From contig CP158635.1 of NCBI GenBank assembly GCA_050273025.1, positions 8,122,001 through 8,186,000 on the forward strand: DNA of 64,000 nucleotides, given 5' to 3'. Below are positions 8,311-64,000 of the stretch, piece by piece. The notes beneath the pieces were generated by a model. It was not told the origin of the DNA, searched no databases, and worked only from the letters and a program-made list of their open reading frames with translations. Position 1 is the first letter of the stretch. Each line of letters starts with the position of its first letter. This DNA comes from Cenococcum geophilum. Taxonomy: Eukaryota. The translations under genes were made by a program, and so were the position numbers.

Positions 8311-8379
8311 TCACCTTGATTTGATCGATCAATCGAATCGTTTATCGTATTCGCTGGCTGGTCGTTCGAACGGTTGTCG

Positions 8380-8755
8380 TGTGGCTCTGGCGACGGTCGT
8401 GTGGCGATAACGACGGTCGTCTGGCTCTAACGGTCGTCTAGCTCTGGCGACGGTTATCTGGCTCCGGCGACGGTCGTCTAGCTCTAACGACGGTCGTCTG
8501 GCTGACGGTTGTCTAGCTCTGGCGACGGTCATCTAGCTCCGGCGACGGCCGTCTAGCTCTGACGACGGTCGTCTAGCTCTGACGACGGTCGTCTAGCTCT
8601 AGCGACGGTTATCTGGCTCCGGCGACGGTCGTCCAGCTCTGGCGACGGTTATCTGGCTCCGGCGACAGTCGTCTGGCTCTGACGACGGTCGTCTGGCTCT
8701 GACGGTCGTCTAGCTCTGGCGACGGTCGTCTGGCTCCGGCAACGGTTGTCTGCTG
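8380..8755. repeat. ~21-bp minisatellite (GACGGTCGTCTRGCTCYGGC-type unit)
   Basis: Directly visible degenerate tandem array. Confidence 0.9.
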
Positions 8756-8920
8756 GCTGTCGTTCTGGTGTCTTCCTAGGTAGGGAGGATGTAAGGAAGG
8801 GTAAAAAATGAGGTGGCTACCTAGGTGTATATAGGGGGTATACTTGGCAGAGGCACGTGTAGAGGCTATCGGGAATATAGCGGGGACCCGATAGTAGTGT
8901 GTCGCGCGCACACACACAAA

Positions 8921-9856
8921 GGCTTTGTGTAGAGCTTCGTGTAAAGCCTCCGTATGCAGAGCTTCGCGCAGAGCCTCGTGTAGAGCTTCGCGTAGAGCCT
9001 CGTGTAGAGCTTCGCGCAGAGCCTCGTGTAGAGCTTCGCGCAGAGCCTCGTGCAGAGCCTCTATATGTAGAGCTTTGTGTAGAGCTTCGTAGAGCTTTAT
9101 GCAGAGCTTCGTGTAGAGCTTTATATAGAGCTTTGTGCAGAGCTTTGTGTAGAGCTTCGTGCAGAGCCTCTGTACGTAGAGCTTCGTGTAGAGCTTCGTG
9201 TAGAGCTTCGTGTAGAGCTTCGTGTAGAGCTTCGTGTAGAGCTTCGTGTAGAGCTTCGTGTAGAGCTTTGTGTAGAGCTTCGTGCAGAGCTTCGTATAGA
9301 GCTTCGTGTAGAGCCTCGTGCAGAGCCTCTGTACCCAGAGCTTTGTGTAGAGCCTCGTGTAGAGCCTCGTGTAAAGCTTCGTGTAAAGCTTCGTGCAGAG
9401 CTTCGTGTAGAGCTTTGTGTAGAGCCTCTGTACGTAGAGCTTCGTGTAGAGCATCGTGCAAAGCTTCGTGTAGAGCATCGTGCAAAGCTTCGTGTAGAGC
9501 TTCGTGTAGAGCTTCGTATAGAGCCTCGTGCAAAGCTTCGTGTAGAGCTTCGTGTAGAGCTTCGTGTAGAGCTTCGTGTAGAGCTTCGTGTAGAGCTTCG
9601 TGTAGAGCTTCGTGTAGAGCTTCGTGCAGAGCTTCGTGCACGAATTCGTGTAGAACTTTGTGTAGAGCCTCGTGCAGAGCCTCTGTACGCAGAGTTTTGT
9701 GTAGAGCCTCGTGTAAAGCCTCGTGCAAAGCTTCGTGTAGAGCTTCGTGTAGAGCTTCGTGTAGAGCTTCGTGCAGAGCTTTGTGCAGAGCTTCGTGCAG
9801 AGCTTTATGTAAAGCCTCATGCAGAGCTTTGTATAGAGCCTCATGCAGAGCCTCTG
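8921..9856. repeat. 12-bp minisatellite (GTGTAGAGCTTC)n
   Basis: A ~930-bp array with variant units. It is the source of the (EALH)n, (TKLY)n and (CRAS)n ORFs. Confidence 0.95.
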
Positions 9857-14442: not shown

Positions 14443-14670
14443 TATTAGTATACTTTAACAACGTGCAGAATATATATATCACAATAATATATACTATGCG
14501 GTGTTGTAGGTAGATCTTGTCTTTCAATACGAAGAAGGGTGAGGAACTTAAGGTTCCTTACCACGCTAGTGCCGCGGCGACACGTGATGGCAACTTGCCT
14601 TATGTAACGGCAACTTGCCATACGTAACGGCAATTTGCCTCCTATTGCAATGCAATATATTCTAGCTACA
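14443..14670 (-). mobile_element. Solo LTR related to the Copia-B LTR
   Basis: T(G>A)TTAG...CTACA flanked by the 5-bp TSD GCTAT (14438-42, 14671-75). The core CCACGCTAGTGCCGCGGCGACACGT...GCAACTTGCC is shared with LTR 59194-59401. Confidence 0.85.
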
Positions 14671-31624: not shown

Positions 31625-33435
31625 TAACCTTTACTAACTTTATCCTCTTTCTACCTTTTACTAACGTATGTGATGGGGTTATAAAGGTGACCCTAGTTAT
31701 AACCGATTTGAAAATCAAAATTTACCAAAATGCTGATTTGGTGGTAAATAATTAGTAAAAGCTATTATAAATTATCGCATCATCCTTCCTGCGAATCCTT
31801 TGGTAAGCAGCTTCTTCTACTGCCCTCTTATCGGTCTCCTAAAGTTGTATAATTAAAGCTGTAGCTGTAGCTGTAGCGGCGGCTGCGGAGGACTCTTCCG
31901 CCCGCTTTTGGAGCGGTTAATTGTTTCCATGCCTTAATATACGCTAGGTAGACTCTAGGATACGTTACGTGGGCCGCAAAATACGCACCTGTGCTTGCGC
32001 GTACGCTAGTTTAAAACTTCCTAGGCTTTTGCACAAGCTTCGGCGCCTTTATAAAGATTTTTTTTCGCTAGGCCGTTAAAGCTGCTTATAGACGATCTTT
32101 TGTATCTAGAGCACTTGGCCAGCAAGGCATGGCTTTAAGTTCTGCGCAAGGAAGTAAGGAGAAAAGTTGATGTGTTGATGTTCAAAGCGGCAGTATATTT
32201 AGCTACCCTAAATAAGAAGGCGGTAATGTAAATCGGTCATAACTAGGGTCACCTTCATAACCCCATCACATACGTTACTCCTTATCCTTACTAAATAAAT
32301 ATATACCTAATAACGGTGGTAACAAACTAAACGTTCTAGATATTTAATTCTGCCCTTATAAATATATTTAACAGTTATAAAGAAATAAAAAAGCCGGTAT
32401 ATAGTAGCTAATAGGGTATAAACTAACCTCTAAGACTTAAAAATGGGTAAGCAGTTTAAAGAGCGATTTTACTCTACTAAAGCTATGTTTAACAATAATC
32501 CGCCTAATTAAAAGCCACTAATTAAGAGCTTGCTAACTTAGTATAATTATTCCTCCTTTAGGCTTTTTATACGGTCCTAATACTCCCTACTAAGACCTAA
32601 AAGCAGCATCCCTATATATAAAGCGCTCTTAGCCTTCTAGCAGATATCCTAGTAGATCTTATAGCTTCGCACTAAGGCTGACTTTAATAGCTAGCGTAGT
32701 ATTACCGCCAGTAAAAGGAAGACTAGTAAAGACCGCGCTAAATAAACCGTTAGGTAGGATAATCGCGAGGTATCCTAGTAAGTATTATTTCTTATAGCTA
32801 CTCTAAAATAGAGTTTATTCTTCCTTACCAGGACAGCAGATTTAAACCTCTATTCTGTTAATAAAGCTAAAGATAGAAGCCTTACTAAGTTAGCTTCTGA
32901 TTACCTTAGTATACAAATTTATTTATTTAGGCAATATTAACTACCTATCCATCTTAATCCTTTTACCCTACCTCTTTATTATATTATCTAAAACGCCGTT
33001 CTAAACCCGCAATAGCCACGGCTGGCTTATTCTAAAGAATATTATAATATATCTAAACAATATAGGATGGGCAGAGCGCCAGAGGAAGACAAAGAGTAAT
33101 TCTTTAGGTAAGCTTGTTAATGCGTTTAGCCAGCCAAAACGTAGATTAATAGCGAACTTAGTAGGTAGATTAATCTGCCGTGTAAGCTCTTTAACCTCTA
33201 CTTTAGTAAAGCGGGTAAAGAACTTAAAATACTTATTATTTAGGCCTTCTTCCTCTTCTGGCGCCTATACGTTAATAAGCTTTTATATAGGACTAAGTCT
33301 CTTTAAGGGCTTCCATAGCCACACTAGTTGAGCTTTATTAGAGGCAGCTATAGCGGCAGCAAGCGCGTTAGCGTTATTCATCTGCAATAGCTAAGCTGCA
33401 GCAGCAAAGAACATGCGACGTTCGAGCCCATCCAT
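31625..33435 (-). pseudogene. Harbinger-type DDE transposase (DDE_Tnp_4-like) remnant
   Basis: ATG at 33435. RIPed motifs IF(S/G)FI(N/D)(R/G)xEVxIC(C/R)PG, xYKKxxxLGYLAIILP(N/D)G and YIxGDAA. The C-terminal tail is interrupted by the pogo derivative. End coordinate approximate. Confidence 0.75.
31664..32275 (-). mobile_element. Internally deleted pogo/Fot1-type Tc1/mariner element (612 bp)
   Basis: 46-bp TIRs ACGTATGTGATGGGGTTATGAAGGTGACCCTAGTTATGACCGATTT (2 G>A differences) and TA TSD. Minus strand keeps the start (MPxxPSA.. at ~32130) and the end of a transposase-like ORF. Confidence 0.88.
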
Positions 33436-37786: not shown

Positions 37787-39733
37787 TCACGCCGGAATCA
37801 ACCCAACCTGAGCCCCGTGAAAACTCTCAAACGTCAACCTCACCTCCTCCACAAACTCCCCCACTGGATCCCTACACTCCACCCCCTGAAACCCCCTCGC
37901 CAACCTCGCAAGCACATACTAAATCTCGCTCCTGGCAAGCTGCTGCGCCGGACAGTGGCGCGGCCCGCCGCTGAAGGGCACGAAGTCCCAGATGGGCCGC
38001 AGGGTGGCCCAGCGCTCGGGGCGGAAGCGGTCGGCGTAGGGGTGGAAGGTCGGTGCGGTGTAGCGCGTAGATGCTCATGCTAACAGTGTCGCCGGGGAGG
38101 AGGAGGAGCATGGTTATGCCGTAGGGTCCGCCGCCGGTGGGGACGGTGCGGCGGAGGCAGGTGCGGGAGTTGTTGGCGACGATGGGGTGGAGGCGGAGGC
38201 CTGGGGGCTTTCAGCCTGCATTTTGGAGGGTATTCCTGGCTTTGTTATCTGGTGGTGTTCAGGGCAAGGAGGTGGGGAGGAGGTGGGAGGAAGGAGGGAG
38301 GGGATGGAGGAGGTAGAGATGAAAGAGGTAGCGAAGCAGAGCACGAATCTTAAACAGCAAACTCACTCTCATTAACCGCCTATCTCAGATACGTCAGGCT
38401 CTTCAACTCTTCGAATATCACCGGCGCATCCCCGAGCCCCAGCACCTCCTCCCTCGGCCTCGCCCCACACCGCCGGATGCCGCGCCAGATCGAACACGAT
38501 GCTCGTCAGCGCAATCGCCGGGCCGTCATGCGCCGCAAGGAACACATTCAGCAGCTCCTGCCGCACCGCATCGCGGTCCCCCGTCCACTTCGCCAGCTCG
38601 TGGGCCAACACATACCGTTCGCCGCCGACATCGCCGCCGAGCAGCTTCCCGCCGCCGCCGCTTTCCAGCTCCTCCTCCTGGCCGGACTCCTTCTCCACGC
38701 TTCCCGGCTCGGCGCCGCCCTGCTACTGCTGCTGCTTGGCGGCGGCCTCCTGCCGCTGAGCCCCCTCGAAGGCCCGTCGACGCGCTGCTGCGTCCAGGCG
38801 TTGACGTAGCGGCACGCGTCGCGGAATCTGCTGTCGTGGTGGAGGAAGCGCAGGCAGCCGAGGAAGAAGCGCACGCCGACGCCCGATTTGGCGAAGTTGA
38901 AGCATTCGAAGAATTTGATGTTTTCCGGGGGGTCGGAGTGGGGTGAGTTGATGGATTCGCCGAAGATGAACTCGGAGGATGAGTCGAGGATCTGGAGGGT
39001 GGGGGGGGGGGGGGGGGGGGGGCTCTTAGCTGGGCTGGAGTTTGCTGGAATAATCGTGCTGCTGGGCTCCTGCTTTGGGAGGGTGGGATTGACTAGGGGA
39101 GAAGAAGAAGAAGAAGAAGAAGAAGAAGACGGGGAGGTGTTGCATCGAGTCTAAATAGCAGTAAGCAGACGCGCCAGCTTAGCAAACAAGGGCTTCAGAC
39201 CCACCGTCTCCCCATTCGTCGGAATCCGCTCATCATCCTGCCCGCATGGACTTCGAAGTTCTGCAACGACTCGAGATTCCTCCGTGCAAAGGTCGGCTGT
39301 ATGAGCCCGCGGCTCCGCTTCCAGCGCGACCCGTCCGAGCTAATGATGCCGTGGCCGAGCAGCGGCTCCGTTGACATGTACCGCGTGGCGCCGATGCCGA
39401 ACGAGTCCATGTTGGTCGCGAACACGGCTTGGATGTTGCACACCGCGATCGTCGACACGACTCGGCTGCTGAAGGGACGGGATTGGAATGTGTTGCCGTA
39501 GCGGGCGTGGTTGGCCTGGTTGAACCGCATACGGCGGTGCTTGCGGGTTGTGCGGAAGAATTGCAAGATGAGGTCGATGCCGAAGATGGGGTCTTTTTGC
39601 GGGAGAGAGGGCGGTGGGAGGCAACCATACTTGTGGAAAGCGAGGTAGTGGTAGAAGCGGGATTGGAGGACTAGAAATGTTTTGTAGAGGGAGGGCAACG
39701 AAGAAAAGGGAGATTGCGGTAGTGAGAGGGCAT
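37787..39733 (-). pseudogene. Cytochrome P450 (CYP52-like clan) pseudogene
   Basis: Motifs DPIFGID, LLGHGIISSDGSRWKRSR, I-helix LNVFLAAHDG, LRLHP, FRPERW and heme motif [10 protein letters not shown] lie in different frames. Several frameshifts, and in-frame TAGs near 38380 and 37920. Confidence 0.85.
39000..39128. repeat. Poly-G run and (GAA)n microsatellite inside a P450 intron
   Basis: A G run of ~22 nt from 39001 and a GAA repeat at ~39099-39128. Confidence 0.9.
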
Positions 39734-40384
39734 GGTGATTGGAGGTTGCAGATTGGAGGTGACAGATTGGAGGTGACAGATTGGAAGCGAGTAGAAAGAA
39801 GTGGAAGAAAGTGAGAGGCTCGAATTGGCAGGGCACGAATGAAGCTGAAAAACTACACATAAACCCCCTCCAAAGGTGGTTGTCACAAAGGTTGCGGCAC
39901 GGCATTAGTGAAGTTGCAAGGATGGGCAAGGTCGGTAATAGGACCTGGTCACTTCGCTTGCTCCACGGACTTTAACGATTTCATCCCTGTACGTACTGCA
40001 ACCGTGGAATATTAGACCGGTCCCTCTGGAGTATTAGGATTGTCGAACCACCTACCGTACGTGGCTAGCGGAAGATCTAGTATACTATAAATTTTATGAA
40101 CTCTTTTTTAATATAAAGCTCTTATACAGTTATAAATATGTAGATTTTATTAACCTTAATACGTCTACTAAGAGTAGAAAAAGAATATACTTAATATTAC
40201 ATGGGTAGGCCTAAGGTAGTTAGCCTTACTATAGGCACTAAAACTTTAGCTACACCTTATATAGCAAGTGTTTTAATGGTAGCGTATATCCACCAGTCCA
40301 CCATCCACCTTCTTGGCGGGAGTTGCGCGAGCCTTATATAGGAGCCAGGCAGGGGTTAAATAAGCGCCATCCCGACCCGGATAC

Positions 40385-47039: not shown

Positions 47040-48793
47040 CTAATTCCAACCAAGGGAATTCTCAGCCGGAACAGGAGTTGAGATCTGCCGTCGTCGTATA
47101 GCATGTCCGTTGCTTCCTCCACTGCCACGGGTATCACGGCTTCCAGGAGAAGATTGTCCAGGACGACCGCTAGGCATCCAAGCAGCACCACCAGCCATTG
47201 ATTCATAGGTATAGTAACTGGCACTAGACACCAAGTTCGACCGTTGGTGCTTCTTGTTCCTATACCTGCGCGCAACGAGGAACATGGCAACACCGCATGC
47301 TATCGCACCTATGGTAGCTCCCGTAGCAATCCCTACACTAGTAAGCATAACTTTGCGGTTAATATTCATGTCCTTACATATCGTACCTCCAATGCCGTAT
47401 TTATTGGGTTCTGTGCTTAATAGAACAAATAGTTGGGTTGGCTCAACTTTGCCAGCAAGCGTTAATCCGTTGACAGTACGGATCTGGTTGCCATCGCTGT
47501 TAGCTAGGAGATACGAGACGTCACTTGAAAGTTCCCAGGTGAAAGAGGACAGAACTGGAATAGGAGTTACGCCAGTGGGAGTAGAAATTGGTGCTATTGG
47601 TTCAGATGTAGGGTTAGTCAGTCCTACGCCGCTGCTTAGAACGGCGCCGTTGAGAGACGGAATAACTTGAGTGGGCTGAAGCACGGAAGACGGCTGGGAG
47701 ACCAGAGAGGATACAAGTGACAGAATAGACATGCTCTCTAAGGTTGTAATAGGGGCTGGACCGGAAGCTATTGGTGAGTCTGTTAATCTAGATGCTGTCA
47801 TATATCTAACGACGGTTCCGGGAGTAGGTTGAAATATAGGTGGTAATTCCAACGAGACCTGAGCATGATTAGGCTCGCTCTCTGATGTTAGAATAAATGT
47901 CGCGATTGTTTCAAGGAGGCCGCTGGTTAAGCTTAAAGATGGTATAATGCCGGCGCCAGATGGGGCTAGAATAGTAGCGGCAAGACCTCCAGCAGATCCA
48001 ATAGAATTGGCGACAGAACTAGGAGCAACGGTGGGAAATTGAATACCTCCTGTAGAGCTTCCCCTAAGAGCCGAAGTTATCTGCAGAGCGATTTTACCTG
48101 TACCTTGGGAAGGAGATAAATCGATTATGCTTGTGAAGGGAGCAGGAGAGCTGGATGTCCCCAATACGTGGGTCTTGGGAAGAAAAATGGTGGAAAAAGT
48201 AGTGCGCCCTGGATTGAGGACGCCATTTTCGTGAGAAGACAGAGGCGAGAGACTTTTCGAGACTTGTGATGGCTTAACGTTGGTTTCTGCGATATCGCTT
48301 CCACGACTTGGTTGAATGGCAGCATTTATAGATAAACGAATAGCTGCGTTATCAAATTGGCCGATAGTAGGTTGGGTAAGCTTAACCGTCGTAACGGGTA
48401 TTCTGGATTTTTGATTTGAACAACGCGGAGGCTCTGGCAAGCCTGCCTCGAGGGCCTCAGTGCAACCTTTGCTGGATTCGTTCTCCTATGCAAGTCAACA
48501 TAGACTAATAGACATCCTAGTATCGCAATTATGTTGTCTACCTCACTGCAGTACGCTAGGAAGTCTTTCTCAGCCGTCCACTTCGCTAGTTTGGCCATGC
48601 AGCGCCCATCCGTCCAACTAGCGTATCCGAACCAGAGTGCTAGCGTGGGTAAGAATATAACACCTATTGCCTTAAGCCAGCGTAGTATAGTCTTTCTTAG
48701 GCGTAGCAGGATCCTTGAACGGGTCTTTTTGGGTCTCGATATCCTGCCTGCATGGCGGGGCTTACGTTTCGGTCGTGTGCTGGATCTAATCAT
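47040..48793 (-). CDS. Two-TM Ser/Thr/Pro-rich membrane protein with an Msb2-type signalling-mucin TM and cytoplasmic tail (exons 48793-48542, 48485-47040; ~565 aa)
   Basis: A GT-AG intron at 48541-48486 joins the two listed ORFs in frame. Basic N-terminus plus TM (IGVIFLPTLALWFGY) plus AKWTAEKDFLAYC motif, then a long S/T/P-rich region, TM VGIATGATIGAIACGVAMFLVARRY, and C-terminus RRQISTPVPAENSLGWN, matching the characteristic ISxPVxAENSLGWN end of filamentous-fungal Msb2. Confidence 0.8.
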
Positions 48794-51272: not shown

Positions 51273-51798
51273 GATTTAAGGTTCTTGATAATCTTTACTT
51301 GCTCTTTCTTGTAAAACAGCTAAGCTGCATAAGCATGCTTACCGGTGATATCTAACGGTAATTAAACTAATTTAGCACTGGATGTCGCTACTGCAAGTAG
51401 GGAGGGCGGCCGACCCGCTCCGGCCACACCCTTGTAGGTGTTGTAGCAGGTGGTTCTCCGGAAAAACCGGTCTATTCCCGTGCGGTCGCTAGCGAAATCG
51501 GCTTCTTATGAAGGTTTCGCCCGAAATGGCTAGCGCTGCGGCCAAACCCTGGTAAGAAGGTCTGGGGTAGGGCATCCACGACAATCCACGCTGGAGCTTG
51601 GGCCACAAGCGGGCGTGTCTGTCCCTCGGGACGATCATAGAGCTGAGAAGCACCATAATAAAGGACGCGCTTTTGTTCTGTAAGTTACGAGCACCACGAT
51701 CGTACTCAACTAGCAAAGATGTCTGAAATGCAAAGCTAATATTCTACTAGTACTTCCATATTAGATGAACGTTCTTCTCGGACGTCTACCGCTGTCTC

Positions 51799-54700
51799 AT
51801 GAGCGACAGCCTTGCCGACGCCGCGATGGCGCATCCTCCTCGAACACACGAAGATTACCAAATCGGAGTCATATGCGCCTTGGCAACTGAGAAGGCCGCT
51901 ATGGTAGCGATGCTGGACGAAACTTACCCTAAATTAAAGAAGGAAAACGGCGATGAGAACGAATACACACTAGGTAGAATTGGGGTTCACAATGTCGTTA
52001 TTGCTTGCCTCCCAGCTGGCTTAATGGGAAATGGTCCTGCCGCTATTGTCGCAAACAATATGCGACGAAGCTTCCCAATCAAATTCGGCCTTATGGTCGG
52101 CGTTGGTGGTGGTGTTTGGAGCAAGAAAGATGATATTCGTCTTGGAGATGTCGTTGTCAGTCAACCCACAGGGGCTCATGGTGGGGTGGTGCAGTGGGAT
52201 TTTGGAAAGACGGGAAAAGGCGGGAAATTTCAGCGGACTGGCTCCCTGGATAAACCACCACCGGTGTTACTGCACGCGTTGCAGGAGTTGAGGACGTTTG
52301 ATCTTACAGACGGTGTTGATATTGTAGGGTCTCTTTCGTTCATGGTTCGGAACAAGCCGCGAATGGGCCGGACCTATCGATATCAAGGGGAAGATCATGA
52401 CCAGCTGTTCGAGGCCACCTATGACCACGAAGGTGACGAGACGTGCGATGAGTGCGACCCTAAGTTGATTGTGCAGAGACCGGCCCGCGAAGACTCTACT
52501 CCCAGGATACACTACGGGAACATCGCATCTGGGAACGAGGTGATGAAGCATGGTACTACTCGAGATAAAATAGCTAAGGAAGAAGGCGTAGTTTGTTTCG
52601 AGATGGAGGCAGCTGGACTGATAGACAATTTTCGGTGTCTTATGATCAGAGGAATTTGTGACTATGCGGATTCGCACAAGAACAAAATATGGCAACCTTA
52701 TGCTGCGGCCACAGCGGCAGCATTCGCTAGAGCGCTTCTTGGTTTTATCGATGAACAGGAAGTGATCAAGACGCCTCGTGAGTACATTCTTCTGCTAAAT
52801 ATCAATCTACATGTGGCATATCTTGTGTTTTCAAGATTGTATTCTCTAAAGAAAATAGTGTCATTGCCATCCTTTGTGAAGATGTGAGATATTCAGCACA
52901 TGTCATGCATTTTGTGACGTAACTTCTGTGTATTATAACTAATTCTAAGTTAGTACCTCTAAAACCACTCAGGGTGCTACCTTTTGGTCGCAACAAAGAT
53001 TTCGTTGGCCGCCAGTCTCAGTTAGATCGGCTGATCAATATTTTATATACTGAGGATACCCAGGAAGACTGTCAACGTGTAGCTCTAGTAGGCCTTGGTG
53101 GCGTTGGGAAGACCCAAATTGCCTTAGAGTGCGCCTTTAGGCTCCAAAAGATTCTTCCAGTGCTCTCCGTGTTTTGGGTCCGGGCTAGTGACACAACGAG
53201 TTTCGATAATGCGTTTCGCGAAATTGGGCAGCAACTCAAGATTCCCGGACTTGAGGACGATAAAGCAGACGTCAAAATATTAGTCAAGACTAAGTTGTCC
53301 CAAGAAAGCACAGGGAAATGGCTTATGATTATGGACAACGCGGATGACTTCGAAATATTCTATCACAATGACAACAAAGACAGCGGATCCGGTGCATTAT
53401 CTGAGTATCTTCCTTTCAGTCCTCTGGGCGCGATTCTCTACACGACTCGGGATCGTGAGGCTGCTACAAGATACGCTGGCTCAAATGTGATTGATATAGA
53501 CGAGATGGACGATGAAGAATCCAGGAAGCTCCTTGAACGAAGTCTTCAAAACAAACAACTCATCGAAGATAAGGACGGTACAATCAAACTACTGAAATTA
53601 CTTGTCAATCTTCCACTTGCAATAATGCAAGTGGCCGCATACTTAAACGCCAAGAGTAGCACCATCGCTGAGTATCTCAGAATCTATGAAGAGAGCAGTG
53701 ATAATGTTATCAAGTTGTTAGGCAAGGACTTCGAGGATATAAGGAGATATCCGGGTATGAAGAACCCAGTTGCTACGACCTGGCTTATTTCCTTCGAGCA
53801 AATCCGAATCCGAGATCCTTTAGCAGCGGACTATATGGCCTTTATTTCTTGTATCAAAGGGCAAGATATTCCCTTGGACCTGTTGCCTCTAGCTTCTAAA
53901 TTCGATAAGACAGAGGCACTTGGCACCTTAAAAGCCTTTGGGTTTATTAAAGAACGCCTCAGCGGGATATCATATGATATGCATCGATTGGTTCATACGG
54001 CAATGCAAAATTGGTTAAAGCTTAAGGACGATTTAAGAAATTGGAACCAGAAGGCTTTACAGCAAATAAACGACATTTTTCCATGGCCGAAGCATGAAAA
54101 CAGGGCTGTATGGATGAAATACCTTCCTCACACGGAGACTATTATTACTTCTATAGACCTTTTAGGTGGAGTAGAGCTACCGCCGATGTTGCTACTTAAA
54201 TTAGCAGAATGCTATCGTATTGCAGGCAACTATTCAAAAGCCGAGCTGCTAGGCCGGCAGACGCTGCAGCTTAAGGAGAAGGTGCTCGGGAAGGAGCACC
54301 CAGACACGCTCGGGATCATAATGGGCGTTGCATCATCGCTCTGCCAGCAAGGGAAGTTCGTAGAGGCCGAGGTCCTACACCAACAGACGCTGCAGCTTAA
54401 GGAGAAGGTGCTCGGGAAAGAGCACCCAGACACGCTTGCGAGCATGATGGGCCTTGCATCATCACTCTACCAGCAAGGGAAGCTCGTGGAGGCCGAGGGC
54501 ATATACCAACAGACGCTACAGCTTAAGGAGAGGGTGCTCGGGAAAGAGCACCCAGACACGCTTGCGAGCATGATGGGCCTTGCATCATCGCTCCGTTCGC
54601 AAGGGAGGCCCGCAGAGGCCGAGGCCCTACACCGGCAGACGCTGCAGCTTAAGGAGAAGGTGCTCGGGAAAGAGCACCCAGACACACTCGCGAGCATGAT

Positions 54701-55733
54701 GGGCCTTACAATATCGCTTAACCATCAAGGGAAGTTCGTAGAGGCCGAGGCCCTAGGCCGGCAGGCGCTGCAGCTTAAGGGGAAGGTGCTCGGGAAAGAG
54801 CACCCAGACACGCTCGGGAGCATAAATAACCTTGCATCATCTCTCTACCAGCAAGGGAAGTTCGTAGAGGCCGAGGCCCTACACCGGCAGGCGCTGCAGC
54901 TTAAGGAGAAGGTGCTCGGGAAAGAGCACCCAGACACGCTCGGGAGCATAAATAACCTTGCATCATCTCTCTACCAGCAAGGGAAGTTCGTAGAGGCTGA
55001 GGCCCTACACCGGCAGGCGCTGCAGCTCAGGGAGAAAGTACTCGGGGAAGAGCACCCAGACACCCTCGCGAGCATGATGAGCCTTGCATCACCACTCCAC
55101 CAGCAAGGGAAGTTCGTAGAGGCCGAGGCCCTAGACCGGCAGGCGCTGCAGCTTAAGGAGAAGGTGCTCGGGAAGGAGCACCCAGACACGCTCGCAAGCA
55201 TGATGGGCCTTGCATCATCGCTCCGTTCGCAAGGGAAGTTTATAGAGGCCGAGGCCCTAGACCGGCAGACGCTGCAGCTTAAGGAGAAGGTGCTCGGGGA
55301 AAAGCACCCAGACACGCTCACGAGCATAAATAACCTTGCATTATCTCTCTACCTGCAAGGGAAGTTTATAGAGGCCAAGGCCCTACACCGGCAGACGCTG
55401 CAGCTTAGGGAGAAAGTACTCGGGAAAGAGCACCTAGACACCCTCGCGAGTATAAATAACCTTGCATTATCGCTCCGTTTGCAAGGGAAGTTCGCAGAGG
55501 CCGAGGCCCTAGACCGACAGACGCTGCAGCTTAAGGAGAAGGTGCTCGGGAAAGAGCACCTAGACACGCTCGGGAGTATAAATAACCTTGCATCATCTCT
55601 CTACCAGCAAGGGAAGTTCGTAAAGGCCGAGGCCCTACACCGGCAGGCGCTGCAGCTTAGGGAGAAAGCACTTGGGAAAGAGCACCTAGATACCCTCGCG
55701 AGCGTAATAAGCCTTATATTACTACTCTACTAG
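51799..55733 (+). CDS. Fungal NLR (STAND) immune receptor: PNP_UDP_1 effector + NB-ARC + TPR repeats (exons 51799-52777, 52954-55733; ~1252 aa), C-terminus shortened by a RIP-type stop
   Basis: PNP_UDP motifs IGVICAL, GLMVGVGGG, DIRLGDVVVS, FEMEAAG and IRGICDYADSHKNKxWQxYAA. A phase-1 intron GTGAGT...TTAG restores frame. P-loop GLGGVGKT, Walker B WLMIMDNAD, MHRLVH, and 12 highly similar 42-aa TPRs (LGKEHPDTL). Confidence 0.92.
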
Positions 55734-56230
55734 TAATAGAAGTTTATAGAGGCTAAGGCCCTAAACCGGCAGGCGCTATAGCTTAGAGAGAAAGTACTTA
55801 GGAAAGAGTACCTAGATACCCTCGCGAGTATAAATAACCTTATATTATCTCTTTATTAGTAAGGGAAGTTTATAAAATCCGAGTCTCTATACTGGTAGAC
55901 TTTATAGCTTAAAAAGAAGGTGCTTAGGAAAGAGTACCTAGATACGCTTAGGAGTATAAATAACTTTATATTATCTCTCTATTAGTAAGGGAAGTTTATA
56001 GAAGCTAAATCTCTACTAGCAGACTCTGCAGCTTAGGGAGAAGGTACTTAGAAAAGAGTACTTAAATACGCTTATAAGTATAAATAACCTTATAATATCT
56101 CTTTATTAGTAAAGGAAGTTTATAAAGGCTAAGGTTCTATACTAGTAGATACTATAGCTTAAGAAGAAGGACCTAATAGAGCTTAAATAACCTTACACCA
56201 TTGCTTTACTAGTAAGGGAAGTTTATAGGG
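54236..56230 (+). repeat. 126-bp tandem TPR-coding array: 12 units in frame plus 3-4 RIP-destroyed units after the stop
   Basis: The unit recurs every 126 bp. Units beyond 55733 keep the pattern but with CAG>TAG, CAA>TAA and ATG>ATA changes. Confidence 0.93.
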
Positions 56231-56745
56231 GCCTTAAGAGTATTAGCGGTTTTATATTTAGGGAGACTTTTTATTAAACGCAAAATAGGGTTATAAAAGA
56301 AGGACTTATATATAGATTAAACTATAAAGAAAAGAGACTATTTATATATAAAATGGTGGCGAAGGTTAACGTTAACAATAACAACTGTTGCGTCATTGCC
56401 ACCTTAATTAACACTTTTATATATAATATATTATTTTCTTTATAAATCTATTTTATAGAGGGCTAAGGGGAATATACCTTTATAGAGTTTAAAACTGCTA
56501 CCTAATTTCTAGTATTATTATAATAATTGTGCACTATTTACGTAATAAGTAGCGAGATATTTACCTTAGGAGTTACTCGGTTACAATATGGAGGTTTTAG
56601 ATTTAGTTTATAATCTATTAATTTGGAGTAATTTTGTCTATATAGTTACCGCTTATAAAACGCTAGAATATTAGCAACTTTATTATATATAGCTTCTAAA
56701 ATAGAGCTTTTGGCGTTATTTTAATATAGAGCTTAAAACTCTATA

Positions 56746-56865
56746 ACGTATATAATAGGGTTATAAAGGTAACCTTAGTTATAACTAATTTAAAAATTAA
56801 AAATTGCTAAACTATTAATTTAGTAATAAATAATTAGTAAAAGTCATTATAAGTTATTACATTAT
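56746..56865. mobile_element. Heavily RIPed one-ended fragment of the pogo family seen at 31664
   Basis: TA-ACGTATATAATAGGGTTATAAAGGTAACCTTAGTTATAACTAATTT aligns with the 31664 TIR and subterminal sequence. No right end found. Confidence 0.65.
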
Positions 56866-57353
56866 TAGTAAAAAGTCTTAAAGCTATAAATATATATATA
56901 ATAGAGTCTATATAAAGTTCAATTTTTAATATTTTAGTTAGAGCTATTAGTGGAAAGTAACTAGACTATAGAGGTCCCTAATAAAAGTTTTTATATCTTT
57001 CTAATTAGGAAGTTTTAGAAATAATAATACTTATTTTTACTTATTATATTTTTATATTATATCTTATTAAGTATAAATTAAAAATCTAATAAGAATTTTT
57101 TATTATATATATAGTATTAGGCTAGTGAATTAATCTTTAAAGTTTGCGTGCCTTAATATATACTAGGCAGACTTTAGTATACGCTATATAGGCTATAAAA
57201 TATACACCTATGCTTACGTATACGTTAGTATAAAACTATTAGGGACCTTTATAACGTTATAGGCTTTTATATAAGGTTTGGCGCTTTTATAAAGACTTAC
57301 TATTTATTAGGCTATTAAAGTATAATAGAACTAGCCTAGTTACAATAGGAACG

Positions 57354-59193
57354 TATTAGTGAAACACTTAACAGACGAATTCTAACACTTTGTCCAAATT
57401 CTGCCAAATTCTACTAGCTTAATTAACTTCTGCTAAGTTCTACCAGATCTATTAAATTTTACTAAAGTCTGTTAAAGACTGCGTGTATATATACGCACGC
57501 ATTAACCACTAAGCCCCTAACTATTTAATTATATAATTCTCTTATTATTCCTTTCTCTTCTTTACGTAATATCTTGTTTTTAGCGAGAGCTATATACCCT
57601 TAGATTTAGATAAAATTTATATTATTCCTTTAAATCTTTCCTAAAGTCTCTTCGCGCCCTTATATTATATTATATTAAAATAATTACTATTAAAATAGTA
57701 AACGAACTTAAACCTACCGCGTTAACTATAAGCATTATAGCCCTAGTTAGGGAACAGTTAACTATAATATAACAGTCCTTTATGGATGCTTTGGCCTAAC
57801 AGTAAGCGATATTAAAAGTTTAGCACTAGTAATTAATAGAAGTAATCTATAAAGAACTCCGTAACCTTAAAGCACTTATATTAAAGACCTTAATAGTAAT
57901 ACCTATAAATAAAATTAAAATAACTATATATAAACCCGGCCCATTAAATATAAACCCTAAACTAGTAATAGTAGCTTAACCTATACTTATAACGAACCTA
58001 ATACCTACTATAAAATTTAAAAAGCTCCCTAACCCTCTAATATTTAATAGAAATTAAAATAACCTACGTCCCTTTATAACTAAGCTCCGTCTTAAACTTT
58101 TAATAAACTATAATTAATGTTCTACTAAAGCTAGCAAGATTAGCTATAAAATATCTTATTTAAATAAAGACGCTATATAAACTATAGACTTATTCTTCCG
58201 TAATAGCACCTTTATTAATTTTAAAATCTTTATCTCTCTACTATAATAAATATATAATAACGCCAGCTATAAATATATAGCTATTACTAAACTTAAAAAC
58301 CTATAATAACGGAACCGAGACTTTACTAGCTTCTTTTTGGAAATTTTAGGCCTTATTAGTAAACTAGATTAGAATAAAGCCGCTAGAGTTACTGCTCTCT
58401 ATTAAGCTATTTTAGATAAAATTAAAGTATAGTTAGTAGGTAGAGAACTACTAAAGGACTTACCTAAATTTGCTATAATATATTAACAAATTAATAAGGA
58501 CCTTTAATATAACAAATAGACTTATTTCCTAAAGCTAACTATACCTTACATTTAAAACTTTATAAAACCGGTATATACCCTAAAGCGCGATCCGTCTTTA
58601 AAACTAAAAAGCCCTATATACGACCCTATAGACCTTAACACTACTTAATCCTATATACCCTTAGGAATTAATAAATAAAGAATACAAGCTGTAAATAGAG
58701 AATGCTTTAGATATAGAAAAAAGGGATATATTTAAAGAAATTACTAAACTTACCCTTTTAAAAAAGTCTAACGTAGTTTTTCTTAGTCTTTAAATTATAC
58801 TTATTCTATAAATTATACTTAGTCGCTATAAAGTATTTTACTTTTAGTTAATTTAGAAAACAAATCGTCTTAAGGCTAAGTTATGCCTTAAGATAAAAAG
58901 TAGAAGAGTATAAGTATCTAGGCTCTTTTAGCGCTAATATATAATATAACTCCCTTAATATACTTAGCAAAATTTAAATACTTAGAAAATAGAAAAAAGT
59001 ATAAATCCTTATAAATAGTAGAGCTATTAGTATAGGCTTTATTAATATAAACTATGTAAAAACTTAACGCTTAAATTTAAAGAAACTTAATAAGCCCTAA
59101 GGCCTATAAGGCTTTAATAGTAAGCCTTTAATATATAGTAAATTAACGTACTACGCTCTTATAAAGATATAAATAGGCAAATACCTTAAATAT
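57354..59193 (+). mobile_element. 5' part of a heavily RIPed Ty3/gypsy element (Gypsy-4: LTR, gag, protease), interrupted by Copia-B
   Basis: Gag-like KLPxPxxFxG..LRPFxTKLRLKL (~58020-58100), knuckle remnant near 58700, protease-like L(I/V)(N/D)S(R/G)A near 59010. LTR start approximate. Confidence 0.65.
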
Positions 59194-62100
59194 TGTTGGT
59201 CACATAGGGTGACTCACCAATAACGACTACTCGAGTAGGTTACAGTGATGTTGGTTAATAAAGCTTATTAATTAGAAAAGAGGAAGGGCGAGGAGCTTAA
59301 GGCTCCTCGCCACGCTAGTGCCGCGGCGACACGTAATGGTAACTTGCCATCACGTGACGGCAATTTGCCGTATATAACGGCAAATTACCTTATTCCCGAC
59401 ACTAGCAACTCTTCTTTTATAGTTGCCCTCTATATATAAATACTACTTAACTATTATAACAAATATAGATCCTCCTTACTTACTATTACTATTATAATAT
59501 AAGTCTCGCTGTCCCAAAATTTACCTCTTAGCACGTGGTGCTTTCTTACTAAGGAGTTATAGGTAGACATCGTGTTAGGGCCGTTAGGGCCGCCAAGGCG
59601 CTAGCTATAAGCAAGCTAATAGCAATTTTCTATACCAGGTATAGAAAATCCTAATTGGCTAGTTAAAATCAGGGTTTATAAAGCGTTATACTCTTACTCC
59701 CTTTTAACCCAACCTTTAACTTATATACGTAAAGTATTTATGTTAATAAACACTTCTAAAGCCTTATTTGGGTTTGCCTTCGTCATTACATCTACTAGGT
59801 TATCTTAACCGTTAATCTATTAAATTTTAAAGAGTTCTCACCCTTCATAGGATTAATGAAGTGCTATAATATTAATTATAAGGCGCTTCTCCTTTATAGT
59901 ACTAAGCTTAACTAAGCATTTATAAAGGGAGTATAAGTTAGTATATACGATTATAGGGATAACGGGAAGTTCAAGTCGATCTATAATTATCTTTAGGGTA
60001 GTTCTAATTGCAATTGCTATATTAACTCCGCCAACCATTTTATATATCTCTAATACTAGAACGCTTTAAGTAACGCGCTTACTCTTAGTTAAGCTCTAAT
60101 AGATAAGATTGCCGTAGATTATAAAGTTATTCTCTCTAGTAGATTCATTTGCGATAATAATCTTATATCCTAGCTAGAAGCTAAAATCTTTATTATTTAT
60201 AAATAATCTATTAACAAATATAAAGAGCTTAGCAGTAGGAAGATTAATAGGCACGTAGAGTAGTCCCTAGTTAAGATAGTTCATTTACTAGGAGAGACGC
60301 TTATTTAGGGCAAGGACGTTATCCTTAGTTAGTTCCTAGTATTAAGCGGCAACAGAGAGATTAAATAAAGCCTTAGGTTAACAAATAGAAGCGATATAAG
60401 CTCTATAAGCGCGTTACTCTATATATCCTTATTTTGGAGAATTAACGTTAATAATATTAATCTTCTTGCCTTAACCCTTCTGGCATAAAGCAATGGAATC
60501 CTTATTTAGGGAGAGGACACATCTATTAAAGAGTAATAGTGTTATTAAATTAAGCATTTCCTTTAGCTTTACTATAAGATTTGCCTTTACTAGCTCGTCT
60601 TCTTTAAGAGCTAAGAATTAGTTATCTCCTAAGATAATTATATTATTAATTTATATGCCAATAATTCTAAATAGAGTTTCCGTAGTTATAATAAGGAAGT
60701 ATAGATTAAATATAAAAGTAGTCATCAAAAGCTTCTCTTTATAGTGCTTGCTATAGGTAGCCTACCAGTAAGTTCCTACCTCTGCAATTCCATATAATGG
60801 CTTAAGCATAACCATAATTATATCTTCGGAATATTAGTGGCGAATTTACTCTAAAAGGTATACTAATATTAAGCGCTAAAGGTACGTCTCTAATTAGGTA
60901 TAGGCCTAAGTAATATCTCACAGATAGACCGCCATTTTATTCTTTATTAGGGAGAGAGCTAGTGCAACAATAACTCGCTAACTAGCTTATTAAATTATAG
61001 GAGATTATATAAGAATTACCTCCTTACTATTGTTATTATAGCCTTAAATAACAAGCCTTAATTTCTTAAATAGGGCGTTAGTAGCTTTGCCTTTAATCTC
61101 GTTAACTATTCTTAACTTAAAGATATAAACTTTATTAAACTTAGTAGGGTTATACTTCTTAAACTTAAAGACTCCTCTTGCGATAAGACCATCGATCTCT
61201 TGCTTATTAGATACTTAGAAAGGAGCTCCTAAAGTTATAATATAACCTTCCTTTTAGAGCTATTTTACAAGTTTAAAGTTAGCCTTCTCCTTAGCTGTTA
61301 TAAAGGCCATTAATAGCTTAACTCTATTCTCGATGGCAGCAATAAATTACTCTTTAAAATTAATAAGATATTAGTAATTTCGTAATCCCTTCAGGCGACC
61401 TCTACCGCATTATAGTTGCGGCGTATCTACTACAATTATATTAGGATTGTGGTCGCCTTCTAGAGCACGTTAATCGTGGCTCTCCTTTAAGGCATCTTTT
61501 ATGGTATCCTGCAAAGGCTTAGAACTATTATCTTTATAATAAGGCTTAATAACAGTTAAACGGAATTAAGTGGGTCTATAAGGCATCTAAATAGTATAAG
61601 TTTAACTATTAACTATAATAAGTTAATATAGGCCTAACCATCCTCCCTTTTTACGCTATACGCGTACCTTAGACTAAAGTGGCAGATCAAGCGTAGTTAA
61701 GGTATTTAGGCCATTTCTTATTCCTAGTGCATTATTAACCTGGCGTATAGCGTAGAGACGTTATACCTCTTTTATTGCCTTACAAATAGCCTTAGCTTAT
61801 TATATAACAGAGGGAGATAGTAAAGAATTATTAGTTATTTAAGGGTAGGCGCTAAAGACTAGCAATGTAGGTATAAGTCTATCTGGGCCAGTGGAATCGT
61901 TAATAGCTTTAACAGCTATTTACAAGGTAAGTTCTTCGCTAGCATCCTCTAGTTCTAAAGAAATAATCTTATATACGCAGTATAATAGCGTATAGTATTA
62001 TTTTACTTTTCTAACACTATTATATGCCTTAATAGGGACTTCCTTAACCTTAATTGCTATTACCTTTATCTATTATCGGAACTCCATAGATAAGAAGTTC

Positions 62101-64000
62101 TTTTCTATATTATAAACGATTTAATTAGGGGGTCCTAAGTAGACATTAATCTAGCATAATTATAGGGTATCCTATGCGTTTCTAGCTAATATATCCTTTA
62201 AGAAACGTGCGGCTTAGAAGGAGGTTAAGAAGTTAATAACTTAAAGTACTAGCTTGCCGCTAAGATATATAACGTCAATAATAATATAAAAGTTAAAGTC
62301 GTAGTTATCTTTAAGGGTAAACTTAAATCGGCTAGGGGACTTCTAGTTCATTTAGCAGTAGTGGCAGTACTTTATAAGATACTTAATTACCTTAACCTTA
62401 ACTTTATAGCCTACTCACTAAAGAACCCTAAGCAATTAATAAACGGATAGGTAGTTAAAACAATAGTATAGTTAGCGTAACTCTAACTTAGTTAAATAGC
62501 TCTAAGCAACACTCCTTTCTAGTTATTAAAGGAGCAGCTAAAGGTAACCCCACTTATATATAATAGGCACCTAATTGTCTCCCTACACAAGCATATTCTT
62601 AAGGTTGTTAAGTTTAACGCCTAATTTATCTATATTCCTAATACAGAATAGAAACAGAGTGTTTACGGGAATAATATGGAAAGTAATATATCCTAAGGGG
62701 GTTTAGACCCTAATTATACTAAGAGAAATCGCGGTACCCTTGCTAAAACGTATTATATATTAGCCTGCCGTTAATTAGTTAATCTAGATAAAAGTATTAA
62801 GTTATTAAAGGGCTTAAACTTAAGGTTCTCCTACTATAGATACTCCTGCGGCTCCAGTATCTGGCATAATACTATAGAAGATATTCGCCAAGTATCTATT
62901 ATTAAAGGAGAACGTAAAGCTCTCCTTTAGCTTATTAAAGATATTTAACTTTATAGTAAAATGGAGCATAGATTAGTTATTAAGAATAGTAACGGTTTGT
63001 ATACCATCTACCTTACTATACTTAGTAAAGTATTAGTCAGGTAAGTAATCCTCAATTTCCATATCTATAAGGAGCTATTTAGCCTTATTAACCTTACCCT
63101 TAAGATCTTCTACGCCTTTATATTAAACCAGAAAGCTTTAGAAGTAAGCCGTAGTAGCCTTATAATTTCCAACATTTCTTATACTTTAGCGAAACTTATT
63201 ATATGCCTCCTTTCGCTTATTAAGAGAATACCTAGTTAACCAGCAATTCGGTTTCTTACAAACATAGCATTTCTTCTAGCAATTACTTTAAAATGAACCT
63301 CTATAAGAACCTCCACCTTTACCTTATAGTTATTAATTATACCCTCTACCGTATTACCTACTACGGCCACTATATATTTAATCAGTCCAGTTATAGTTAT
63401 ATTAGTTAGGCGGGTTAATTAAAGTAAGTTAGAGTTAGGCGTTAAATTGCTATACTTTTTAAAAGCGTAAAGTAGTACTAATAGAAGATCTTAATTGGGC
63501 ATATACTCCTTTATAAGTATTTACAGGATTAAAGAGAGTAAGGTTATATTCTTTAACGCCTTAGCATGCGCTAATAACTTAATTACGTAGGCTGAAATCC
63601 TCTTAATATAATTTAAATAAACCACGCTAAATCGTCTAAAGTTAATTAAAGAGCTTTTAAAGATAATTAAGCCGAGGGACACCTAGGTTTATAGCAATAA
63701 TCCTTAAAAAGGTAGTCTCTCTCTATTCTAACATATACTACTACTTATTCTCTTCTATTTTAAAGTAGTATCTTAACATATATATCATGCGGTTAAAATT
63801 ATATCCTTTTCCTACTAAACAATCATAATAAAAGGTACTAGCTCGGCCCTTAAGCATAACAGAATAAGCGTTATAGTATTAATTAGACTCTATTCCTACC
63901 TTCTAGCAATAGTTATAGAAGATACATAGTTTTAAATTAAAAACATTATATAATTCCCTACTAAACTTCTTCTCCTAATCCGAGTAGAGCTTCGTAAGCT
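59194..64000 (-). mobile_element. RIPed Ty1/copia LTR retrotransposon (Copia-B), 5' end beyond window
   Basis: 3' LTR 59194-59401 (minus strand TGTCGGG...CCAACA) preceded by purine-rich AAAAGAAGAG. Minus-strand gag knuckle CYVCKKPNCW (~63250), protease MPDTGAAG (~62860), integrase, RT and RNase H in copia order. Confidence 0.88.

What the first reader, a model, noticed from the sequence alone, without database searches (positions are those of the whole stretch)
55280..56230. NLR sensor array being trimmed by a directional RIP gradient
Seen: TPR units 1-8 are clean. Units 9-12 accumulate transitions (HPD>HLD via CCA>CTA, ATG>ATA). A CAG>TAG ends the ORF at 55733, and 3-4 further units are saturated with stops and merge into the AT-rich TE block. 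Inference: RIP, spreading from the neighbouring TE region or triggered by the near-identical repeats themselves, is editing the number and sequence of ligand-binding repeats while sparing the effector and NB-ARC domains. This would be a mutational route to NLR allele diversification or inactivation in addition to unequal crossing-over.
Basis: partly seen in the sequence, partly recalled or inferred. Interest (0 to 1): 0.75.

Follow-up and report, generated by a model that had tools for sequence, protein, structure and literature searches.

The report
RIP-eroded tail of a fungal NLR
The last four to five sensor repeats of a fungal immune-receptor-like gene have been turned into AT-rich junk by the fungal genome-defence mutator RIP, which fades out about 1 kb into the gene from a neighbouring dead transposon block; this is a clear example of a process already described.

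Summary
A spliced, expressed PNP_UDP/NB-ARC/TPR gene (about 51810-55733, +) ends in a 126-bp tandem array of 16 units (54254 to about 56235). Units 1-8 sit at background level. From unit 9 onwards C>T and G>A changes rise steadily. The share of CpA/TpG sites hit is 6% in units 1-8, 12-38% in units 9-11, 62% in unit 12 and 75-88% in units 13-15. Reverse transitions and transversions do not rise. A CAG>TAG change at 55731-55733 ends the ORF. Units 13-16 carry stops, a 2-bp deletion and a 23-bp deletion. RNA contigs still run through them, so they now serve as 3'UTR. The downstream flank has strong RIP indices. It contains a Ty1/Copia polyprotein relic with 110 in-frame stops, 93 of which lie opposite Q, R or W in an intact relative. 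The best reading is RIP leaking from the repeat block into the gene's 3' end. RIP triggered by the array itself is not excluded. Both RIP leakage into genes and RIP acting on conserved NLR repeats are already in print, so this is a clean new instance and not a new mechanism. No allelic variation or ongoing trimming was shown.

The parts
51810..52777 (+). Exon 1: N-terminal PNP_UDP (nucleoside phosphorylase-like) effector domain. The start codon is not fixed (ATG at 51810 or 51827).
   Evidence: ORF 51769-52887. Pfam PNP_UDP_1, E 1.2e-11. RNA contigs begin at 51708 and 51770.
52778..52953 (+). Intron, 176 nt, GT..AG.
   Evidence: Read from the sequence. The joint 52777/52954 is seen in spliced contigs of runs X5 and X9 and in 13 raw RNA reads of X21.
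52954..54253 (+). NB-ARC nucleotide-binding domain (Walker A GLGGVGKT) plus helical linker and a first, divergent TPR.
   Evidence: Pfam NB-ARC, E 5.3e-13. Translation. Closest relatives are 92-94% identical. There are 12 window-specific amino-acid changes in 432 codons.
54254..55261 (+). TPR units 1-8 (126 bp each), at background mutation level.
   Evidence: CpA/TpG sites changed: 1-2 of 16 per unit. Mean pairwise nucleotide identity 0.866.
55262..55639 (+). TPR units 9-11, still coding but lightly hit (E>K, A>T, S>L, P>L missense changes).
   Evidence: CpA/TpG sites changed: 2, 6 and 3 of 16. 26/228 C/G sites changed against 33/608 in units 1-8, p 0.004. Translations.
55640..55765 (+). TPR unit 12, heavily hit. 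It contains the CAG>TAG stop at 55731-55733 that ends the ORF.
   Evidence: 10 of 16 CpA/TpG sites changed. ORF end. Alignment.
55766..56235 (+). Units 13-16: former coding repeats, now 3'UTR. They carry many stops, a 2-bp deletion at about 56015 and a 23-bp deletion at about 56180.
   Evidence: RNA contigs cover 55630-56290 (X5) and 55630-55948 plus 55994-56265 (X9), with 0 differences.
56236..56455 (+). AT-rich stretch behind the array, still covered by RNA contigs. It is probably the end of the transcript.
   Evidence: The X5 contig runs to 56290, and a depth-2 contig covers 56305-56455. There is no RNA depth over 56525-56926.
56300..59696 (.). AT-rich block (GC 0.20-0.35) with the RIP dinucleotide signature and fragments repeated elsewhere in the window.
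   Evidence: Composite RIP index 1.06-1.55. 56744-56865 matches 31662-31783, 57142-57237 matches 31923-32018, and 59280-59390 matches 14531-14640. Summed DNA contig depth is 215-31323, against 92 in the gene. No Pfam hit.
59697..63998 (-). Relic of a Ty1/Copia LTR-retrotransposon polyprotein, killed by point mutation only. It runs off the end of the window.
   Evidence: Best relative P0121: 69% identity, E 1.5e-169, RVT_2. One collinear tblastn match with 110 in-frame stops. Opposite them P0122 has Q 62, R 21 and W 10 of 110; P0121 has Q 36, R 13 and W 6 of 55.

Best explanation
Repeat-induced point mutation (RIP) was directed at the transposon-derived repeats downstream of the gene. It ran on past its target and into the 3' end of a PNP_UDP/NB-ARC/TPR NLR-type gene. 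RIP is the premeiotic C-to-T mutator of filamentous ascomycetes.

The mutational dose falls with distance over roughly 1 kb. The most susceptible sites (CpA/TpG) are near saturation in units 13-15, about half hit in unit 12, sporadic in units 9-11 and at background in units 1-8.

One such change (CAG>TAG) cut the sensor array from at least 16 units to about 11.7 units. The units behind it became untranslated 3'UTR and later picked up two small deletions. The shortened gene is still transcribed and spliced.

Shown: the footprint, the gradient, the stop, the transposon relic and the transcription.
Inferred: that the enzyme system is RIP, that the trigger was the flank, and the order of events.
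For: 1. Direction and type. The excess changes in units 9-16 are C>T and G>A (160), while all other changes (57) stay at background level. Reverse transitions number 4 in units 9-16 by the strict count.
2. Context. C>T hits 47 of 88 CpA sites, against CpG 21/72, CpC 9/64 and CpT 5/64. G>A hits 21 of 40 TpG sites, against 22/72, 21/88 and 14/120 for the other contexts.
3. Gradient toward the flank. It is also present within the non-coding tail, where selection cannot shape it (units 12-15, p 0.004).
4. One-sidedness. The 5' edge of the array, which abuts unique sequence, shows no such excess.
5. The most similar pair of units (5 and 6, 98% identical) is the cleanest. This argues against the array as the trigger.
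6. The flank. TpA/ApT is 1.4-1.9 and (CpA+TpG)/(ApC+GpT) is 0.2-0.68. It contains repeated fragments. It also contains a Copia relic without frameshifts in which 93 of 110 stops lie opposite Q, R or W.
7. Not an artefact. Independent DNA and RNA contigs agree with the window.
8. Precedent. RIP overrunning into adjacent genes is described for Neurospora, Leptosphaeria and Cladosporium (passages read).
Against: - The array is itself repetitive (mean 86.6% nucleotide identity over 1.4-2 kb). It therefore meets the similarity and length thresholds quoted for RIP (passage), and is not the single-copy neighbour of the classical leakage case.
- The nearest sequence shown to be repeated inside the window starts only at 56744, about 500 bp behind the array. 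The identified transposon starts at 59697.
- The rise is steepest between unit 11 and unit 12, close to the stop. Selection on the coding part may therefore have sharpened the profile.
- Units 10 and 11 share the same two CpA hits. This fits hot spots, but it also fits exchange of already mutated units.
- Neither the presence of RID/DIM-2 genes nor a sexual cycle could be checked, because no genome is held.
- CpG sites are hit at about 30%, which could include ordinary 5-methylcytosine deamination.
Confidence: 0.68

Rival explanations
1. RIP was triggered by the array itself, or by near-identical TPR units of paralogous NLR genes. All units were hit. The 5' units were later cleaned by unequal crossing-over or gene conversion, or kept clean by selection among progeny. 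The units behind the stop could no longer be rescued.
For: - Unit identity of 81-98% over more than 1.4 kb meets the thresholds quoted for RIP (passage).
- In Podospora, conserved NLR repeats are enriched in RIP-like polymorphisms, and repeats of RIPped pseudogenes look 'rescued' (passages).
- Units 5 and 6 are 98% identical, which shows recent unit turnover.
- Units 10 and 11 share the same two hits.
Against: - The load keeps rising toward the flank inside the non-coding tail. Neither selection nor rescue predicts this.
- Only the edge next to the AT-rich block is affected.
- All four strict RIP-type changes in unit 9 are missense, so no filtering by selection is visible there.
Confidence: 0.2
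2. This is not RIP. The tail is an old pseudogenised stretch that decayed by ordinary AT-biased mutation, or by deamination of methylated cytosines in heterochromatin spreading from the transposon block.
For: - The tail carries two deletions, so it has been non-coding for some time.
- CpG sites are hit at about 30%.
- The RIP machinery was not shown.
Against: - After subtracting the background of units 1-8, the excess in units 12-16 is about 113 C>T/G>A changes against about 10 of all other kinds.
- Reverse transitions are not raised.
- CpA/TpG sites are hit nearly twice as often as CpG.
- The adjacent Copia relic has 110 stops and no frameshift, which ordinary decay does not produce.
Confidence: 0.08
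3. The degraded units are an assembly artefact or a chimeric join.
For: Tandem arrays are hard to assemble. The number of clean units could not be verified with short contigs.
Against: One DNA contig spans 55630-56351 and continues into 56322-56773 with 0 differences. RNA contigs of two further studies cover 55630-56290 with 0 differences.
Confidence: 0.02

Closest known systems
RIP leakage from AT-rich repeat blocks into adjacent genes (Neurospora; Leptosphaeria maculans effector genes; Cladosporium fulvum)
   Same: A gene at the edge of a RIP-degraded transposon block carries C:G>T:A changes with CpA preference, including a stop codon, and the load falls with distance from the block. The phenomenon is described in passages read.
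   Different: The affected sequence is not single-copy. It is a tandem array, which supplies its own ancestral reference and allows the dose to be read unit by unit. The target is an NLR-type gene, not a secreted effector. The lineage is probably a Leotiomycete, judging by the nearest named relatives.
RIP acting on highly conserved repeats of fungal NLRs (Podospora NWD/HNWD genes)
   Same: The gene is an NLR with internally similar C-terminal repeats that bears RIP-type mutations. The idea that RIP hypermutates such repeats or inactivates such genes is stated in passages of PMC4986451 and PMC13449251.
   Different: In Podospora the repeats of RIPped pseudogenes are reported as nearly intact, while the rest of the gene is mutated. 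Here it is the reverse: the distal repeats are destroyed, and the effector and NB-ARC parts are spared. The repeats are TPR on NB-ARC, not WD40 on NACHT. Their mean amino-acid identity (77.5%) is below the 85% used to define high internal conservation.
PNP_UDP/NB-ARC/TPR class of fungal NLRs
   Same: The three-part architecture is confirmed by Pfam and by one spliced transcript. PNP_UDP is among the commonest N-terminal domains of fungal NLRs (passage).
   Different: The array is truncated by a mutational stop. No function is known for this gene or its close relatives.

Membership tests
Fungal NLR (STAND) protein, PNP_UDP/NB-ARC/TPR type | N-terminal effector-type domain | tested here: met
   PNP_UDP_1, E 1.2e-11, residues 32-314 of the exon-1 ORF.
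Fungal NLR (STAND) protein, PNP_UDP/NB-ARC/TPR type | Central NOD domain with a P-loop | tested here: met
   NB-ARC, E 5.3e-13. GLGGVGKT is read in the translation.
Fungal NLR (STAND) protein, PNP_UDP/NB-ARC/TPR type | C-terminal superstructure-forming repeats | tested here: met
   TPR_10, E 2.7e-152, 12 stretches. 126-bp period.
Fungal NLR (STAND) protein, PNP_UDP/NB-ARC/TPR type | All three parts on one transcript | tested here: met
   Spliced RNA contigs join 51770-52777 to 52954-54283.
Fungal NLR (STAND) protein, PNP_UDP/NB-ARC/TPR type | High internal conservation of repeats (over 85% amino-acid identity across at least 100 residues, as defined in PMC4986451) | tested here: not met
   Units 1-8 have mean amino-acid identity 77.5% (69-98%) and nucleotide identity 86.6%. 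Only units 5 and 6 reach 97.6%.
Fungal NLR (STAND) protein, PNP_UDP/NB-ARC/TPR type | Role in non-self recognition or regulated cell death | not testable with these tools
   No experiment was possible, and no characterised close relative appeared.
RIP footprint | One-directional C:G>T:A transitions | tested here: met
   Units 9-16 have 160 C>T/G>A against 57 other changes. Units 1-8 have 33 against 47. Reverse transitions: 4 in units 9-16.
RIP footprint | Dinucleotide preference (CpA>TpA and its complement) | tested here: met
   CpA 47/88 and TpG 21/40, against 8-31% for other contexts.
RIP footprint | RIP indices: high TpA/ApT, low (CpA+TpG)/(ApC+GpT) | tested here: met
   55501-56000: 2.23 and 0.47. 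Flank: 1.4-1.9 and 0.2-0.68. Gene body: 0.5-1.35 and 1.0-1.56.
RIP footprint | The target is repeated DNA inactivated by nonsense mutations from Q, R and W codons | tested here: met
   Copia relic: 93 of 110 stops lie opposite Q, R or W in P0122, and 55 of 55 in P0121. No frameshift.
RIP footprint | RID-type cytosine methyltransferase and a sexual cycle in the organism | not testable with these tools
   No whole genome is held for this window.
RIP leakage into a neighbouring gene | The affected sequence adjoins RIP-degraded repeats and the load decays with distance | tested here: met
RIP leakage into a neighbouring gene | The affected sequence is itself single-copy | tested here: inconclusive
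   There is no second copy of the gene or its units elsewhere in the window (0 outside hits among 25 blastn hits). However, the units are tandem repeats of each other, and the rest of the genome could not be searched.

The most novel reading that the evidence does not exclude
At borders of AT-rich repeat blocks, RIP overrun may act as a regular, distance-graded trimmer of NLR sensor arrays. It would shorten and recode the distal repeats and turn them into 3'UTR, while the signalling half of the protein stays intact and expressed. NLR genes parked at such borders would then gain heritable variation in sensor length and sequence at every sexual cycle. The tandem array would also serve as a natural dosimeter of how far RIP spreads: here half-saturation of CpA sites falls about 550 bp from the array end and background is reached by about 1 kb.
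Probability: 0.2. Interest if true: 0.55.

Novelty: new member of a known kind. Interest (0 to 1): 0.33.

Why it matters
Fungal NLR-like genes are thought to need rapid diversification. RIP has been proposed as one of its sources, but it is also a threat to such repeat-rich genes.

This locus shows in one sequence what RIP does to a sensor array next to a transposon block. It produces a smooth mutational gradient, missense recoding of still-coding repeats, a nonsense cut, and continued expression of the shortened gene. The clean units give an internal reference, so the locus yields a direct estimate of the reach of RIP into transcribed DNA (about 1 kb). This is rarely possible without outgroups.

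It does not change the current picture. It is a well-resolved example that could anchor a genome-wide or population test.

Tried and rejected
- Whole genome. None is held. I could not search for RID/DIM-2 genes, for paralogous arrays, or for the copy number of the flank.
- Pfam on X-read six-frame translations of 56230-64000, whole and in four pieces, gave 0 families. The transposon was identified only by the large protein search.
- Native 3' end of the ORF. I ran tblastn with the C-terminal tails of 55 of the 120 homologues against 56100-57200. No hit was better than E 0.08. Whether the array originally ended at unit 16 stays open. A possible 17th unit behind 56235 is not established.
- Read-through of the tail still scores as TPR_10 (E 1e-09) only through its first units, because the frame is lost after unit 14.
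- Allele comparison. Runs X1, X5 and X9 show the window's sequence with 0 differences in the listed pieces, so no alleles were seen.
- Diverged relative. Run X21 (raw RNA reads of a relative with many fixed differences) puts no reads on 55721-56122. Reads from other TPR genes make the array uninterpretable there.
- Direction of X21's differences. The window has A/T where X21 has G/C at 64 places, against 40 the other way (binomial p 0.024). These are unpolarised, include the array, and only 40 of 165 places were listed. I treat this as a hint only.
- The polarised test on the NB-ARC part found 6 C>T/G>A changes among 12 derived amino-acid changes. That is too few to show anything.
- HPD>HLD as a sign of damage. 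L stands at this position in 21 of 459 motif instances in the 120 homologues, against P in 422. It is therefore a recurrent variant and not proof of loss of function.
- Earlier findings of the scan: nothing on record in three look-ups.
- No tRNA genes in the window. No informative repeats in 56200-60000.

Full report
**What is there.** The window is mostly AT-rich DNA, with three islands of normal composition at about 8-10, 33-40 and 46-56 kb. The finding lies at the right-hand edge of the third island.

Two long open frames on the + strand (51769-52887 and 52923-55733) carry three kinds of domain:
- a PNP_UDP_1 domain (E 1.2e-11);
- an NB-ARC domain (E 5.3e-13);
- twelve TPR_10 repeats (E 2.7e-152).

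I read a 176-nt GT..AG intron at 52778-52953 from the sequence. It is confirmed by spliced contigs in two RNA runs and by 13 raw RNA reads in a third.

The gene therefore has the three-part architecture of a fungal NLR-type protein, and it is expressed. The nearest named relatives of the NB-ARC part are Leotiomycetes (Oidiodendron, Pseudogymnoascus, Tricladium, Hyaloscypha; 72-77% identity). Two unnamed proteins reach 92-94%.

**The array.** Tandem Repeats Finder reports a 126-bp period from 54254 to 56170, 15.2 copies. I cut 16 units and aligned them.

- Units 1-8 are on average 86.6% identical at the nucleotide level and 77.5% at the protein level. Units 5 and 6 are 98% identical.
- A 2-bp deletion lies at the joint of units 14 and 15 (about 56015).
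- A 23-bp deletion lies inside unit 16 (about 56180).
- No other copy of the gene or its units is found elsewhere in the window (0 outside hits among 25 blastn hits).

**The gradient.** I counted changes in two ways.

Strict count: only changes not seen in any other of the clean units 1-8.

| Class | Units 1-8 | Units 9-16 |
|---|---|---|
| C>T plus G>A, per unit | 1,1,1,4,0,1,2,3 | 4,3,3,10,13,20,17,10 |
| Reverse transitions, sum | 11 | 4 |
| Transversions, sum | 8 | 13 |

Count against the majority consensus of units 1-8.

| Class | Units 1-16 | Spearman with unit index |
|---|---|---|
| C>T plus G>A | 2,5,6,4,3,4,4,5,9,10,7,20,27,32,34,21 | rho 0.86, p 3e-5 |
| All other changes | 5,4,8,5,6,5,8,6,5,9,4,8,8,7,6,10 | rho 0.37, p 0.18 |

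The context is that of RIP.
- C>T hit 47 of 88 CpA sites in units 9-16, against 21/72 CpG, 9/64 CpC and 5/64 CpT.
- G>A hit 21 of 40 TpG sites, against 22/72, 21/88 and 14/120 for the other contexts.

Per unit, the number of the 16 CpA/TpG sites changed is 1,1,2,2,1,1,1,1 in units 1-8 and 2,6,3,10,14,13,12 in units 9-15. In the truncated unit 16 it is 8 of 13.

The less susceptible C/G sites keep rising up to the border: 10/60, 13/60, 19/60 and 22/58 in units 12-15. The trend test gives p 0.004. This last series lies wholly behind the stop codon, so selection on the protein cannot have shaped it.

Units 9-11, which are still coding, already exceed the background (26/228 against 33/608, p 0.004).

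**The stop and the tail.** The TAG at 55731-55733 aligns with the CAG of the YQQGK motif in the clean units. Units 12-14 read Y***K and Y**GK at this place. After unit 14 the frame is lost.

RNA contigs of two studies cover 55630-56290, and 55630-55948 plus 55994-56265, without a single difference from the window. A thin contig reaches 56455, and RNA depth is zero over 56525-56926. The spliced contigs lack the intron, so genomic DNA in these libraries is low. The degraded units are therefore transcribed as 3'UTR.

Contig depth behind the stop is 13.2 against 47.5 in the unique coding part in one run, and 5.4 against 13.5 in the other. Contig depth is a poor measure, and I draw no conclusion from it.

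**The flank.** From 55.5 kb to the end of the window the RIP indices are strongly positive: TpA/ApT 1.4-2.2, (CpA+TpG)/(ApC+GpT) 0.2-0.68, composite index 0.8-1.8. In the gene body the composite index is -0.7 to -0.06.

Short stretches of the flank recur elsewhere in the window, at 31.7, 31.9, 14.5, 19.3 and 12.4 kb. The summed depth of DNA contigs is 2 to 340 times that of the gene.

Pfam sees nothing in the X-read frames. A search of the large protein collection identifies 60201-61400 (-) as a Ty1/Copia reverse transcriptase (best hit 69% identity, E 1.5e-169, RVT_2).

tblastn with intact relatives gives one collinear match over 59697-63998, with 110 in-frame stops and no frameshift. Opposite the stops, P0122 has Q 62, R 21 and W 10 of 110, and the closer relative P0121 has Q 36, R 13 and W 6 of 55. 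These are the nonsense changes that C>T and G>A produce.

**Interpretation.** That a C:G>T:A mutator with CpA preference acted here is as good as shown. In a filamentous ascomycete, next to a transposon killed in this manner, that mutator is RIP. This step rests on established knowledge of RIP and not on a test of the enzymes, because no genome is held.

The open question is the trigger. I favour overrun from the flanking repeats, for three reasons:
- The load rises toward the flank even in the non-coding tail.
- Only the edge next to the AT-rich block is affected.
- The most similar units (5 and 6) are the cleanest.

Against this, the array is itself similar enough to count as a RIP substrate (thresholds quoted in the passage). 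The steep step between units 11 and 12 lies near the stop. Units 10 and 11 share the same two hits, which may mean hot spots or may mean exchange of mutated units.

The two deletions in the tail show that the truncation is not recent.

**The spared part.** The effector and NB-ARC parts are open and expressed. I compared them with three close relatives that agree with each other. The window has 12 derived amino-acid changes in 432 codons, of which 6 are C>T/G>A, 3 are reverse transitions and the rest are other kinds. This is no more than ordinary divergence.

**Comparison with what is known.**
- RIP overrunning into adjacent single-copy genes is described for Neurospora and was invoked for effector genes in AT-blocks of Leptosphaeria maculans (PMC3105345, passage read).
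- 'RIP leakage' has been mapped genome-wide in Cladosporium fulvum (PMC9453070, passages read).
- The conserved repeats of fungal NLRs are said to be prone to RIP, and RIP may act as a hypermutator there (PMC4986451, passages read).
- For Podospora this has been analysed at population level, including the possibility of leakiness into adjacent domains (PMC13449251, passages read).
- PMC12258605 finds only weak links between RIP and NLR number (passages read).

In Podospora the repeats of RIPped pseudogenes are reported as nearly intact. Here the distal repeats are the part destroyed. My three literature searches found no paper describing a unit-by-unit RIP gradient in a TPR array. That is a statement about these searches only.

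**Verdict.** The idea is already known. This is a clear new instance of moderate interest, useful mainly as a natural measure of how far RIP reaches into a transcribed gene.

Noticed in passing
window 59697-63998 (-): A Ty1/Copia polyprotein relic that stays collinear with intact relatives over about 1450 codons. It has 110 in-frame stops and no frameshift, so it was inactivated purely by point mutation. It runs off the end of the window.
   Followed up: yes
window 7797-9851: A GC-rich island (GC 0.49-0.56) inside AT-rich DNA that consists of short-period tandem arrays: 9 bp x15, 4 bp x38, 20/40 bp x19 and 12 bp x76. The long ORFs there in several frames are artefacts of the repeats, and their Pfam hits are low-complexity noise. 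This array has kept its G+C although it lies among RIP-like sequence.
   Followed up: partly
window 55388-55639 (units 10 and 11): Two adjacent units that derive from different native unit types carry the same two CpA>TpA hits (CCA>CTA and GCA>GTA). This fits either RIP hot spots or exchange of already mutated stretches between units.
   Followed up: partly
proteins P0001-P0120: At the proline of the LGxxHPDT motif, the 120 homologues have P 422 times, L 21 times and S 7 times, out of 459 instances. The two commonest replacements are those reached by a single C>T change. P0001, 94% identical to the window's protein, ends in a unit with HLD.
   Followed up: partly
window 51500-54500, run X21: Raw stranded RNA reads labelled as a related organism show a diverged copy of the gene, with many fixed differences. 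It uses the same intron. Some of its reads cover intron positions 52785-52839.
   Followed up: no
window 47040-48485 (-) and 39195-39971 (-): A 481-codon open frame with no Pfam family lies upstream of the NLR gene. A weak cytochrome P450 fragment (E 1e-4, below the curated cut-off) lies in the 33-40 kb island.
   Followed up: no
window 56313-56351 and 57394-57451: Many DNA and RNA contigs and reads match only these short stretches and then run on into unlike sequence (loose ends). This suggests short elements that are dispersed in many copies.
   Followed up: no
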